NCBI RefSeq assembly: GCF_009914755.1 | Contig: NC_060929.1 | Length of the DNA stretch: 64,000 bases | DNA from: the human T2T-CHM13v2.0 reference genome, Homo sapiens | Strand: one strand, 5' to 3' | Part shown: positions 1 to 3,649 of the stretch, piece by piece | How the letters are laid out: the number at the start of each line of letters is the position of its first letter | Position numbering within the stretch: the stretch's first letter is position 1 | Notes under the pieces: generated by a model | What the model saw: only the letters and a program-made list of their open reading frames with translations | What the model was told of the DNA's origin: nothing | The model's database searches: none | Position numbers and translations under genes: made by a program

Positions 1-715
1 ATGCAAATCAAAACCACAATGAGATACCATCTCACACCAGTTAGAATGGCGATCATTAAAAAGTCAGTAAACAACAGATACTGGAGAGGATGTGGAGAAA
101 TAGGAGCAATTTTACACTGTTGGTGGGACTGTAAACTAGTTCAACCATTGTGGAAGTCAGTGTGGCGATTCCTCAGGGATCTAGAATTAGAAATACCATT
201 ACTGGGTATACACCCAAAGGATTATAAATCGTGCTGCTATAAAGACACATGAACACGTATGTTTATTGTGGCACTATTCACAATAGCAAAGACTTGGAAC
301 CAACCCAAATGTCCAACCATGATAGTCTGGATTAAGAAAATGTGGGACATACACCATGGAATACTATGCAGCCATTAAAAATGATGAGTTCGTGTCCTTT
401 GTAGGGACATGGATGAAGCTGGAAACCATCACTCTCAGCAAACTATCACAAGGACAAAAAACCAAACACTGCATATTCTCGCTCATAGGTGGGAATTGAA
501 CAATGAGAACACATGGACACAGGAAGGGGAACATCACACACCAGGGCCTGTTGTGGGGTGGGGGCAAGGGGGAGGATAGCATTTGGAGATATACCTAATG
601 TTAAATGATGAGTTACTGGGTGCAGCACACCAACATGGCACATATATACATATGTAACTAACCTGCACGTTGTGCACACGTACCCTAAAACTTAAAGTAT
701 AATAAAAAATAAAAA
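1..715 (+). mobile_element. L1PA (about L1PA4-type) 3' end: ORF2 C-terminus, 3'UTR and A-tail; continues left of the window
   Basis: ORF 1-252 is the L1 ORF2 C-terminus ([15 protein letters not shown]...[13 protein letters not shown]); canonical 3' end TACCCTAAAACTTAAAGTATAATAAAAA at ~681-709. Confidence 0.95.
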
Positions 716-2486
716 TAATCCTACTTATAATTAAAAAAAAGATACACCAAAGAAACTATACAGATATTCCCTAACAACACAAAACTTTAACAATGAAGTT
801 AAACTGTATAGCAAAAGCCAAGTATGACAATACACATGAATAATTTATAAAATAAACCTTTAAATCCTAGAAAACTAAAGTGGGGAGATCTTACTAAGGG
901 GTAACATACATAAAATGAGGACTAAAAGCAAGGAACAATCCTTAACACTTTCCCAATGACTGACTAAACCTCAAAAAGACAACTTAGGAAAATGATTAAC
1001 ATGTAGTTTTTATTTTTTTCCTAGCCGGTTCAGTTCTACTTAGACAGACCTGGTTACCAATCGATACGTATATAGATTATTTTTTTCTTTCTACTCAGTT
1101 ACTACCATTTTTTTCTTTTTCCTCTTTTCCCTAATTTTTCCTCTGGTTTGATGAGTTGAACTCAAAAGGTTTGGTACCTAAAATGATTATCGATGCTTAT
1201 AGGAATAGCACTAGAGAAGTGCAATCCTAGAAAAGGCAAATTTTTAACAGAGGTGGCTTGACAAAGTTAAGCATTCATTCTCAATATGACAATGTCTCCC
1301 ATGTTAGTCACAAGGTTAATGGCTGCTCTTGGGTAGATCCCTTGACCCTGCATGATACTGTAATGCTTCCTAGTGAGGTACTGCAGAGCTATGTCACACA
1401 CACCCATGAAAGCTTTCAATAAATGCAAAGCATCATTTTAAACCATTTCAGTGGAAAAAATAAAAAAAAATCACGTTTCTCTCGGCTTGCTTTGTTTCTT
1501 GAGCTGGCTTGAAGTGCTTTTGGTGATATAGAAGACACAAGAGTTAGTTAGTGGCTACTCCAAGCTCTTTAGACTTCAGCACTTTCCGTTCTTCAAGCCT
1601 CAGCACTTTTTTTTTGTGGCAATTATGGTATTCTTCATTAGCATTGCCACTGTCATAGGGCCAACACCTCCAGAAACTGGAGTGATATAACTGGCTTTTT
1701 GCCTAACTCCTTTAAAATCCACATTTCCAACCAACTTAGGTTTAGCAGTTACAGGATCTTGAACTGTATCTATTCCCACATCAATGCTATTGCTTCTCCC
1801 TTGGTCATATTTGCTGTGATCAGATTTGGAACACCTGCAACAGATATTACAATATCTGCAAGAATTGTATGTTTCCTCAACTGCTCTTTGGGGGTATATC
1901 AATGAGATATTATAACAGTGGCATCACCTCCGTGACGTTCATGCACCCCATCTGTGTGCAGTGACATTGCAATAGGCATTACAACATTTTTTGACCTTCC
2001 AGCCACAACCACATTCTTCCCTAGGGTTGGAATGCCAGTTTGCTTAATTATTTCCCACACACTGCATGGAGTAGCTGGTATACGGAATACTGGTCCAGAT
2101 ACATTCACCCTACATTAATTACATGAAAGCCATCAACATCCTTATCTGGAAAAACAGAATTGCAGATCTTTCTCTCATCAATGTGCTCTGGAAGAGGCAG
2201 GTGGAGAAGGAGGCCATCTACATTACCATCATTATTCAATTTATTGATTAAATTCAACAATTCTTCCTCTGAAATTGAAGCTGGTTTCACAATTATCTCA
2301 CTGTTGATTCCCACATCTGCAGCTGCCCTGGTTTTGTTGAGGATATGGCAGAGACTTGCAGGAGTTTTGCTGACCAGAGCCACGCTCAGGCATGGCCCTT
2401 TGTTGCCAGAGGCCACCTGCTCCTCCACCTCCTGCCGCACTTCCTGCTTGATCCACTGGGCCAGTTTCCTGACAACAGCTTCATTT

Positions 2487-2672
2487 AGTTGGCAATGGGT
2501 TCTTCCCAAGAACCCCACTGCTTCATCCAAAGCTGACAGACCAAGAGTGAGTATCTGACTGCAAAGGCAACAATTTTTAGGTTGGCCAGCTGTTCAGTTG
2601 GTGCAAAAGCTTAGCTCATAAGAGCAGTGAGAGTTATCGGAACCAGTAAGAGCTCGTCCGAGGGAGTTCAAA
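2487..2672 (-). other. 186-nt extra segment between MTHFD2 exon-1- and exon-2-derived sequence (candidate fossil cassette exon)
   Basis: Exon-1-like ...HLAAV ends ~2673; exon-2-like AAATGAAGCTGTTGTC starts at 2486; the segment has no GT..AG ends, poly(A) or TSD. Confidence 0.7.
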
Positions 2673-2797
2673 GGAACTGCCGCGAGGTGGAAAGGGCGAG
2701 GACAGAGGCGGCAGCTCTGAGCGGGCTGGATCAGCCGGCGACCAACGCTGACATGAGGGAAGTCGCAGCCATAGCCCGCGCCGGTGCCCGCGCTCGG
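2638..2797. promoter_or_regulatory. Small CpG-rich patch (retrocopy 5' end)
   Basis: 18 CpGs counted in ~160 bp versus about 6 in 1544-2486. Confidence 0.5.
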
Positions 2798-2931
2798 CTG
2801 ACAGTGATTTTAAATAAAGTTTTGTTGAAGGAAGATAGGTACGTTTCATTTATGGAAATGAAGGTGGAATTTTTTACAAAAATTAAGTTCCGCAGAAAAG
2901 TAGTATTAATGGGATTAGCTGTGACACAGTC

Positions 2932-2950
2932 TCCCAGCAGGGGGCAACAC
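2932..2950 (+). promoter_or_regulatory. CTCF-like motif CCAGCAGGGGGCAA
   Basis: Matches CCASYAGRKGGCR core at 2934-2946; binding not shown. Confidence 0.55.
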
Positions 2951-3649
2951 GTTGGGAATCAGAAGTAGCTGGGCAAATGCTTTTCAACTTTTTTGCCTTT
3001 GTGTCCCAGCCTGGTTAAAGTTCTGAAAAACATTCATTTTAAACTAAATTTCAACTAGTTATGAAATGATTAAACACCTTTTTTTAAATATTCTGACTTG
3101 GTACCTAAGTATTCGATTTTTTTTTCTGTTACATACCGAAATTTAAGAATACGTAATAATAATAAATTACTGCAAAGTTATTACCCTCTATGTAAATTTT
3201 TTTAATTGTTGAAAATGATTTCTTTTGAATTTCATTGACATCCTCATGTTTTGAAAATTGCAGGATTTGTTGCACAAACCCTCAGTTCATGGTATTCTTA
3301 CATCTTATGATTTTATGAATGCCCATTCTGTTCCCATGGAAATTTTCAGTTTTTATCTTCTAGATATTTTTAAAGCGTGTTATTTATATTGAAGGTTTTC
3401 TTATCTATAAAGTTCCAATCCAACAAATGTATTGTTTTTCTAAGTGCAAGCTCTTTTGCAAATGGTTTTGTCCCTGTCTTATTTTGGGTAACCTTCTTTT
3501 TATACTCTACAGTTGTCACACATTTGTTGACATACGGTCAGATAGAGCAGCCAAGGGTTGGTGCCCCTTAGCAGCATCCTGTAATCCTATCTCCTTTATT
3601 AATACCTAAGCTTACCTTTTCCACTCACTTTTTCCTTTTCTTACTCTGA

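What the first reader, a model, noticed from the sequence alone, without database searches (positions are those of the whole stretch)
2487..2672. MTHFD2 retrocopy preserves a 186-nt extra exon-like segment exactly at the exon1/exon2 junction: fossil of an alternative (poison or in-frame) isoform
Seen: on the minus strand, exon-1-like sequence (..HLAAV) is followed by 186 nt that are not canonical MTHFD2 CDS, then exon 2 resumes cleanly at AAATGAAGCTGTTGTC. The segment has no GT-AG ends (so not a retained intron) and no poly(A), TSD or recognisable TE sequence. It is a multiple of 3 and reads PLNSLGRALTGSDNSHCSYELSFCTN*TAGQPKNCCLCSQILTLGLSALDEAVGFLGRTHCQL with only one stop (TGA, 2596-2594), which could be CGA>TGA decay like the other two stops in this copy. 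Known: retrocopies are made from spliced mRNA, and the junction position rests on my recollection of the parental gene structure. Inference: the template mRNA included a cassette exon from MTHFD2 intron 1, either an NMD poison exon or a 62-codon insert between the mitochondrial presequence and the catalytic domain. That would record ancestral germline splicing regulation of this folate enzyme.
Basis: partly seen in the sequence, partly recalled or inferred. Interest (0 to 1): 0.8.

Follow-up and report, generated by a model that had tools for sequence, protein, structure and literature searches.

The report
MTHFD2 retrocopy preserves intron-1 poison exon
A dead, reverse-transcribed copy of the folate enzyme gene MTHFD2 on chromosome 5 has preserved an extra 188-base exon that still sits, with intact splice sites, in intron 1 of the working gene. 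That exon breaks the reading frame, so the copy records an old unproductive splice form, which is a known kind of genomic fossil.

Summary
On the minus strand, window 2672-2487 lies exactly between MTHFD2 exon-1-like and exon-2-like sequence.

The segment is not junk or a transposon. In the whole genome it matches only itself and chr2:74213255-74213442 (85% identity), which lies inside intron 1 of the parental MTHFD2 gene. There it is flanked by a pyrimidine tract plus AG, and by GTGAGA. Homology stops exactly at those splice sites. The template mRNA therefore carried a true cassette exon.

The poison-versus-in-frame question is resolved.
- The parental exon is 188 nt, not 186 nt.
- It places a TAA 21 codons into the exon and 124 nt before the next junction, which is an NMD-type stop.
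- An ORF from an orthologous copy of this retrocopy in another genome (P0001) keeps the 188-nt state and has Trp where the human copy has TGA.
- The "62-codon in-frame" reading is therefore a later 2-nt deletion artefact, and the TGA arose from TGG, not CGA.

Of six human MTHFD2 retrocopies that keep the end of exon 1, three record unproductive forms: this exon, a second intron-1 exon (chr4), and exon-2 skipping (chr3). The cassette has diverged at a neutral-like rate.

This is a new member of a known kind and of modest interest.

The parts
2673..2793 (-). Exon-1-derived part of the retrocopy (short 5' UTR, ATG at 2771-2769, presequence codons). The last base is C where the parent has G.
   Evidence: blastn to chr2:74207396-74207516, 83.5% identity. 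Junction sequence. A 1-nt deletion at codon 11 is shown.
2487..2672 (-). Cassette exon 'A' captured from MTHFD2 intron 1. It is 186 nt here and 188 nt in the parent.
   Evidence: Matches only chr2:74213255-74213442 genome-wide. Identity is 85-86% with 26 substitutions and a 2-nt gap. The parent is flanked by a pyrimidine tract plus AG and by GTGAGA.
2659..2660 (-). Site of the human-lineage 2-nt deletion (parent CCTCAGGGACG, retrocopy CCTC--GGACG). This deletion created the apparent multiple-of-3 length.
   Evidence: Pairwise alignment. P0001 reads FELPQGRALTGS like the parent and switches frame relative to the window at 2658/2659.
2611..2613 (-). TAA that is the premature stop in the MTHFD2 frame when the exon is 188 nt long. 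It is conserved between the parent and the retrocopy.
   Evidence: alignment; parental exon1+cassette translation stops here. (54-aa ORF; the stop ends 124 nt before the cassette/exon-2 junction).
2594..2596 (-). It derives from TGG (Trp codon in cassette frame 0), not from CGA.
   Evidence: The parent has TGG and P0001 has W at this position.
2311..2486 (-). Exon-2-derived part, carrying a 9-nt deletion (codon 40) that is shared with P0001.
   Evidence: P0001 reads NE..V|RKLA without the three parental residues.
739..2310 (-). Exons 3-8 and the 3' UTR of the retrocopy, intronless and disabled.
   Evidence: Seven further colinear blocks. Pfam THF_DHG_CYH and THF_DHG_CYH_C match. The best PDB matches are human mitochondrial MTHFD2 chains. 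Frameshifts at codons 172, 271 and 328, and CGA>TGA at codons 164 and 233.
1..735 (+). L1 3' end with an A-rich tail, oriented tail-to-tail against the retrocopy's 3' end. The retrocopy lacks its last ~20 nt and has no poly(A).
   Evidence: Sequence. The chr13 and chr6:88M retrocopies run about 20 nt further into an A-rich tail. Naming this element as L1 rests on my recall of the L1 3' end, not on a tool.

Best explanation
Window 2487-2672 (minus strand) is a fossil of a real alternative exon of MTHFD2. Intron 1 of the parental gene (6.9 kb) contains a 188-nt cassette exon (T2T chr2:74213255-74213442) whose splice sites are as good as those of the gene's constitutive exons. An mRNA spliced exon 1 - cassette - exon 2 ... 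exon 8 was reverse-transcribed in the germline of an ancestral primate, probably by L1 machinery, and inserted antisense in what is now an FBXO4 intron. This happened tens of millions of years ago. Inclusion of the exon is unproductive. The normal start codon then opens only a 54-codon frame that ends at a TAA inside the cassette, 124 nt before the next exon junction, and the 188-nt length also shifts the frame of exon 2. By the usual 50-55-nt rule such an mRNA is a substrate of nonsense-mediated decay. The exon therefore acts as a poison exon that diverts part of the MTHFD2 pre-mRNA away from protein production. The 186-nt, nearly open 62-codon appearance in the human retrocopy is an accident of a later 2-nt deletion. 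Shown: origin in intron 1, splice-site flanks, the stop and frameshift, the 188-nt ancestral state, and presence in an orthologous retrocopy. Inferred: NMD of the isoform, germline abundance, and any regulatory use. I lean to low-level, weakly selected or unselected unproductive splicing rather than a conserved switch.
For: The genome-wide search with the segment gives 2 of 2 hits, itself and MTHFD2 intron 1. The reciprocal 601-nt parental query hits the window only over the 188 nt between the splice sites. The blocks follow the order exon 1 / cassette / exon 2 ... exon 8. The parental flanks are ttctgtggttctag| and |gtgaga. The pyrimidine fraction is 0.80 and the donor matches 6 of 9 consensus positions, equal to exons 1 and 2. 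The exon borders are validated by the 350-aa ORF. With the cassette, the main ORF is 54 aa, its stop ends at transcript position 186, the next junction is at 310 and the last junction at 1098. P0001 shares the chr5 5' flank (17 of 20 aa). It is 89% identical to the window over 80 aa against 75% to the parent over 65 aa. It shares the 9-nt exon-2 deletion. It carries the cassette in the 188-nt register, with W at the human TGA. Two further retrocopies record other unproductive 5' isoforms.
Against: No RNA evidence for present-day use of the exon could be examined here. Divergence of the cassette between the retrocopy and the parent (K2P 0.156) is as high as that of the 3' UTR (0.141) and more than twice that of exons 3, 5 and 6 (about 0.06). 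The parental exon sequence has therefore not been visibly constrained. P0007 is an ORF across the unspliced orthologous intron region of a more distant mammal. It has His (CAY) where the human donor G lies in a TGT codon, which suggests the donor is absent there. A deeply conserved poison exon is therefore unlikely. An NMD substrate should be rare, so its capture is either luck or implies substantial inclusion or weak NMD in the germline. The retrocopy lacks a poly(A) tail and target-site duplications. P0001 is a single outgroup, known only as protein.
Confidence: 0.85

Rival explanations
1. The cassette is a selected, regulated AS-NMD switch: a functional poison exon that tunes MTHFD2 output, for example by keeping this oncofetal enzyme low outside proliferating cells.
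For: The splice sites have stayed intact in the parent since the retroposition. Three of six junction-spanning retrocopies record unproductive 5' isoforms, which suggests these were not rare in the germline.
Against: The exon has diverged at a neutral-like rate. The donor appears not to be conserved in P0007's species. No paper linking MTHFD2 to a poison exon was found. One search listed 2 papers: in one I saw the passage, where MTHFD2 sits only in a gene list, and the other I saw only in the listing. One search listed 14 papers: I read passages of 3 and none concerned MTHFD2 splicing. One search listed 5 papers, seen as a listing only.
Confidence: 0.3
2. The cassette encodes an in-frame 62-residue insert between the mitochondrial presequence and the catalytic domain.
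For: The human retrocopy's segment is 186 nt with one stop. Frame 0 of the parental exon is open over all 62 codons.
Against: The parental exon is 188 nt, and exon 1 feeds it in frame 1, which stops at TAA. P0001 shows that the retrocopy itself was originally in the 188-nt register. No full-length protein with this insert was found among longer proteins: 1 hit, P0001, of 15 candidates. The peptide has no Pfam match. An open 62-codon frame arises by chance in roughly 5% of frames (my estimate, (61/64)^62).
Confidence: 0.03
3. In present-day humans the cassette transcript is translated from an ATG inside the cassette. This would give MTHFD2 without its mitochondrial presequence, with the normal start codon acting as an upstream ORF.
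For: In the parent, an ATG at cassette nt 154-156 has G at -3 and G at +4. It opens a 328-codon frame that enters exon 2 in the MTHFD2 frame at residue 35. A nuclear pool of MTHFD2 with no known origin has been reported (PMC4602236, passages seen).
Against: This ATG is absent from the human retrocopy, from P0001 and from P0007, so it is young. It lies after a 54-codon ORF and an overlapping out-of-frame ATG, and the mRNA should be NMD-sensitive. There is no protein or ribosome evidence.
Confidence: 0.07
4. The 186 nt entered the retrocopy after insertion, through a transposon, unrelated DNA, gene conversion or RT template switching, and not through splicing.
For: The retrocopy is otherwise disturbed: no poly(A), an adjacent inverted L1, and no target-site duplication.
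Against: The segment derives from the parental intron that separates exactly the two exons it lies between. It is bounded to the base by that intron's AG and GT. It has no other genomic copy. It is already present in P0001.
Confidence: 0.01

Closest known systems
Processed pseudogenes as archives of transcript isoforms (Shemesh, Novik, Edelheit and Sorek 2006, PNAS). Carelli et al. 2016, PMC4772013, cite it for this point (passage seen). The 2006 paper itself is not held, so its content is recalled.
   Same: An intronless retrocopy preserves a splice variant of its parent. The variant exon maps to a parental intron with splice-site flanks.
   Different: This is a single-gene case. Here an orthologous copy (P0001) allows the ancestral length and frame of the exon to be reconstructed. 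Half of the gene's informative retrocopies (3 of 6) carry different unproductive forms.
Poison (stop-bearing) cassette exons coupled to nonsense-mediated decay, as in SR-protein genes (recalled from the literature, not read here).
   Same: A cassette exon whose inclusion gives an in-frame stop more than 50 nt upstream of an exon junction.
   Different: Classical examples are ultraconserved and autoregulated. This exon has diverged at a neutral-like rate, and its donor seems absent in a more distant mammal. NMD sensitivity was not tested.
RefSeq non-coding MTHFD2 variant NR_027405. It is listed as an MTHFD2 transcript in tables of PMC8973756 and PMC3595223.
   Same: An alternative MTHFD2 transcript with extra sequence from intron 1.
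   Different: The published NR_027405-specific forward primer maps to chr2:74210166-74210185, in an antisense-Alu-like stretch about 3 kb upstream of cassette A. It therefore marks a different exon. I could not see whether any RefSeq or GENCODE model contains cassette A.

Membership tests
Processed (retroposed) pseudogene of MTHFD2 | Colinear, intronless copy of the spliced parental mRNA | tested here: met
   Nine colinear blocks abut without introns. Pfam and PDB name the family and MTHFD2.
Processed (retroposed) pseudogene of MTHFD2 | 3' poly(A) tail and flanking target-site duplication | tested here: not met
   The copy ends about 20 nt short of the proximal 3' end used by two other retrocopies. 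It runs into an inverted L1 tail. No repeat of the 5' flank of 11 nt or more was found that would fit a duplication, apart from 1 chance-like match 9.6 kb away. The tail was probably lost when the L1 inserted, which is an inference.
Processed (retroposed) pseudogene of MTHFD2 | Disabling mutations | tested here: met
   Four frameshifting indels, one 9-nt deletion and two CGA>TGA stops.
Cassette (alternative) exon of the parental gene | Lies in the parental intron between the two exons it joins, flanked by AG and GT | tested here: met
   The exon at chr2:74213255-74213442 lies between exon 1 and exon 2. Its flanks are ...ctag| and |gtgaga.
Cassette (alternative) exon of the parental gene | Found spliced to both neighbours in an RNA | tested here: met
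   This is met indirectly. The retrocopy and its orthologue P0001 carry exon 1 - cassette - exon 2 joined to the base. Present-day RNA was not examined.
Poison exon (AS-NMD) | Inclusion gives a premature stop more than 50-55 nt upstream of an exon junction | tested here: met
   A TAA 21 codons into the exon lies 124 nt before the next of seven downstream junctions. The same TAA is present in the retrocopy.
Poison exon (AS-NMD) | Isoform rises when NMD is blocked; inclusion is regulated | not testable with these tools
   No RNA-seq data are available here. The literature searches found nothing on this.
Poison exon (AS-NMD) | Sequence conservation above the neutral level | tested here: not met
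   K2P is 0.156 for the cassette, 0.141 for the 3' UTR and about 0.06 for exons 3, 5 and 6. The donor G appears replaced in P0007. Conservation is typical of the best-known examples but is not strictly required.
In-frame coding insert | Length a multiple of 3 and open in the frame set by exon 1 | tested here: not met
   The exon is 188 nt in the parent and in P0001's register. The frame set by exon 1 stops at TAA.

The most novel reading that the evidence does not exclude
Unproductive splicing just downstream of exon 1 is an old (more than about 30 Myr) and quantitatively important brake on MTHFD2. Three different non-productive 5' isoforms (cassette A, cassette B, exon-2 skipping) were abundant enough in the primate germline to be fossilised in 3 of 6 informative retrocopies. 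In addition, the human-lineage cassette A has since gained a good-context ATG. That ATG would turn the same transcript into an mRNA for presequence-less, non-mitochondrial MTHFD2, a candidate source of the reported nuclear pool.
Probability: 0.1. Interest if true: 0.6.

Novelty: new member of a known kind. Interest (0 to 1): 0.3.

Why it matters
MTHFD2 is a sharply on/off oncofetal enzyme and a drug target, and its control is usually described as transcriptional. A cassette exon with intact splice sites has existed for tens of millions of years and makes the mRNA unproductive. Two further fossilised unproductive isoforms point the same way. Together they give a concrete, cheaply testable hypothesis that splicing in intron 1 also limits MTHFD2 output.

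The case also shows a method. An orthologous copy of a retrocopy can be used to reconstruct the ancestral length and frame of an alternative exon. That corrected a tempting but wrong in-frame reading.

As it stands, though, this is one more example of a known phenomenon, and the exon may already be in transcript catalogues that I could not consult.

Tried and rejected
- A protein search with the cassette peptide among proteins of similar length found nothing. A search with P0001 found only itself, 1 of 127 candidates.
- The exhaustive representative search gave 7 hits. P0001 and P0007 are real relatives. I fetched the sequences of P0003 and P0006, which are long internally repetitive proteins, and set them aside as compositional matches. 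P0002, P0004 and P0005 I judged the same way from the table alone (5 to 15 matched stretches each) and did not fetch them.
- Pfam finds nothing in the cassette peptide or in P0001.
- A transposon origin of the cassette was sought only through genome-wide similarity, which gave 2 places. No repeat library was available, so an ancient, highly diverged repeat origin is not excluded.
- A search for a target-site duplication of the retrocopy across 10 kb beyond its 3' end found none.
- Shemesh et al. 2006 is not held.
- Literature searches for an MTHFD2 poison exon, cryptic exon or NMD isoform gave no relevant paper. A 2026 paper measures 'MTHFD2-FL' and 'MTHFD2-S' variants, but the passages I saw do not define them.
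- Supplementary files were not consulted, so isoform tables there may bear on whether this exon has been seen.
- I considered and rejected intron retention (only 188 of about 6,900 intron bases are present, bounded by splice sites) and post-insertional insertion.

Full report
**1. The observation**

The window is T2T chr5:42222001-42286000. On the minus strand, a short 5' UTR and an ATG at 2771 are followed by MTHFD2 presequence-like codons ending ...GCGGCAGTTC(C) at 2673. Then come 186 nt (2672-2487), and then AAATGAAGCTGTTGTC from 2486.

Pfam finds the two tetrahydrofolate dehydrogenase/cyclohydrolase domains in the downstream ORFs. The best solved-structure matches are human mitochondrial MTHFD2 chains, and they begin only after the first roughly 40 residues of the ORF that starts in the extra segment.

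**2. Where the segment comes from**

- A search of the window's own genome with the 186 nt returns two places only: itself and chr2:74213255-74213442 (85% identity, E = 1.8e-52).
- A search with the whole retrocopy, and blastn against 20 kb of the chr2 locus, place that match inside MTHFD2. It lies between exon 1 (74207396-74207517) and exon 2 (74214443-74214627), so it is in intron 1.
- The retrocopy is colinear with exon 1, this segment, and exons 2-8, down to window 739.
- In the parent the 188-nt stretch is preceded by ...tctttctgtctttgttctgtggttctag and followed by gtgagaagg.
- Its pyrimidine tract (0.80) and donor (6 of 9 consensus positions) are no weaker than those of constitutive exons 1 and 2.
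- A 601-nt parental query centred on the exon hits the window only over the 188 nt between the two splice sites.
- The parental exon borders are not taken from memory. Joining the chr2 exons at GT-AG gives an uninterrupted 350-residue protein.

The segment is therefore a spliced cassette exon of MTHFD2 captured by retroposition. It is not a retained intron, a transposon or foreign DNA.

**3. Poison exon or in-frame insert**

- The parental exon is 188 nt. The human retrocopy lacks two bases 13 nt into it (CCTCAGGGACG against CCTC--GGACG).
- In the parent, exon 1 (101 nt from the ATG) feeds the cassette in a frame that stops at TAA after 21 cassette codons. This gives a 54-codon ORF whose stop ends 124 nt upstream of the cassette/exon-2 junction, with seven junctions downstream. 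Exon 2 is then also out of frame.
- The same TAA is present in the retrocopy (2613-2611).

Which length is ancestral was settled by a database protein. P0001 (149 aa, a single contig) was found with the cassette peptide.

- It begins with a peptide matching the chr5 5' flank of the retrocopy (17 of 20 residues, window 3037-2978).
- It is closer to the window (71 of 80 residues) than to the parent (49 of 65).
- It shares the retrocopy's 9-nt exon-2 deletion.

P0001 is therefore an ORF from an orthologous copy of this same retrocopy in another genome. It reads FELPQGRALTGS like the parent, and it runs through 62 cassette codons plus one junction codon into exon 2 in the MTHFD2 frame. That is possible only with a 188-nt cassette. 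It has Trp where the human copy has TGA, and the parent has TGG at that codon.

Three conclusions follow. The exon was 188 nt and stop-bearing when it was copied. The 2-nt deletion and the TGG>TGA change are later events in the human lineage. The "62-codon in-frame insert" is an artefact.

**4. Age and constraint**

Kimura distances between the retrocopy and the parent:

| Region | K2P | K2P, non-CpG sites |
|---|---|---|
| Cassette | 0.156 | 0.136 |
| 3' UTR | 0.141 | 0.133 |
| Exon 3 | 0.069 | 0.069 |
| Exon 5 | 0.058 | 0.041 |
| Exon 6 | 0.057 | 0.046 |

The cassette has diverged like unconstrained sequence. With assumed rates of 1-2.2e-9 per site per year, this puts the insertion very roughly 30-80 Myr ago. 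That range is my estimate, not a tool result.

A second database protein, P0007, is an ORF running colinearly through the upstream intron flank, the cassette region and the downstream flank of an orthologous, more diverged genome. At the human donor (codon TGT, whose G is the +1 base of the donor) it has His (CAY). The GT donor therefore seems absent there. This rests on a protein-level alignment only, but it argues against a deeply conserved exon.

**5. The other retrocopies**

The genome search found eight retrocopy loci, which is a lower bound. Two are 5'-truncated: chr6:88.2 Mb and chr13. Six keep the end of exon 1:

| Locus | Structure after exon 1 |
|---|---|
| chr7:83.84 Mb | Canonical ...GCAGTTCG\|AAATGAAG junction |
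| chr3:182.27 Mb | Canonical junction |
| chr6:109.16 Mb | Canonical junction |
| chr5 (this window) | Cassette A |
| chr4:165.67 Mb | Exon 1 joined to a different intron-1 stretch, exon B, followed by an L1 fragment and then exon 2 |
| chr3:98.36 Mb | Exon 1 joined directly to exon 3 |

- Exon B is chr2:74210747 to about 74211058. It is preceded by a T-run plus AAG, followed by GTAAGA, is 83% identical over 223 nt, and also carries a premature stop.
- Skipping exon 2 removes 185 nt, which shifts the frame.

Thus 3 of 6 informative retrocopies record three different unproductive 5' isoforms. The numbers are too small for statistics, but they suggest that such isoforms were not rare in the germline.

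**6. What is known**

That retrocopies archive transcript isoforms is established. Carelli et al. 2016 (PMC4772013) cite Shemesh et al. 2006 for this point (passage seen). The 2006 paper itself is not held.

I found no paper on an MTHFD2 poison, cryptic or NMD exon:
- One search listed 2 papers.
- One search listed 14 papers.
- One search listed 5 papers.
- The passages I read were irrelevant to MTHFD2 splicing.

RefSeq has a non-coding MTHFD2 variant, NR_027405 (tables in PMC8973756 and PMC3595223). Its published specific primer maps about 3 kb upstream of cassette A, in an Alu-like stretch, so it marks another exon. I could not check whether cassette A is in GENCODE or RefSeq, and supplementary tables were not consulted.

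**7. A speculative extra**

In the present human gene the cassette contains an ATG with G at -3 and +4. It opens a 328-codon frame that joins MTHFD2 at residue 35, so the product would lack the mitochondrial presequence. The ATG is absent from the retrocopy, from P0001 and from P0007, so it is young. It lies behind a 54-codon upstream ORF. A nuclear pool of MTHFD2 of unexplained origin has been reported (PMC4602236, passages seen). I give this reading about 7%.

**8. Verdict**

The poison-exon alternative is chosen and the in-frame alternative rejected. Mechanistically the exon diverts pre-mRNA into an NMD-type transcript. Whether that is used for regulation or is tolerated noise is open, and the neutral-like divergence makes me lean to the latter. 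This is a new member of a known kind, with interest 0.3.

Noticed in passing
L007 (chr4:165669279-165673117) 328-1010: A second MTHFD2 retrocopy joins exon 1 directly to another intron-1 stretch, exon B (chr2:74210747 to about 74211058, about 312 nt). In the parent exon B is flanked by a T-run plus AAG and by GTAAGA, and it carries a premature stop. An L1 3' fragment with an A-rich tail sits at the exon B/exon 2 border.
   Followed up: partly
L006 (chr3:98355430-98359496) 2437-2669: A third retrocopy joins exon 1 directly to exon 3. It is a fossil of exon-2 skipping. Exon 2 is 185 nt, so this form is frame-shifted as well.
   Followed up: partly
window 1-760: The retrocopy has no poly(A) and stops about 20 nt short of the 3' end seen in the chr13 and chr6:88M copies. 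It abuts the A-rich tail of an oppositely oriented L1 3' end (recognised from recall). No target-site duplication was found within 10 kb.
   Followed up: partly
window 739-1346 and 2487-2793: The RefSeq span of MTHFD2P6 (1347..2486) stops exactly at the start of exon 2. It omits the cassette, exon 1 and about 600 nt of 3' UTR that are clearly part of the retrocopy.
   Followed up: yes
L002 1654-1656 (chr2:74213408-74213410): An ATG inside the parental cassette, in good initiation context, opens a 328-codon frame into MTHFD2 from residue 35. It is absent from the retrocopy, from P0001 and from P0007.
   Followed up: partly
window 2814-2977: P0001 lacks about 160 nt of the human 5' flank of the retrocopy. 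The missing stretch is bounded by similar short repeats (TTGAAAA / TTTAAAA). It is unresolved whether this is a deletion there, an insertion here, or splicing in a transcript contig.
   Followed up: no
L027, chr2:74210150-74210255: An antisense-Alu-like stretch in MTHFD2 intron 1 has a long T-run plus CAG acceptor and a GTGAGT donor. It contains the published NR_027405-specific primer and is probably the exon of that RefSeq non-coding variant.
   Followed up: partly
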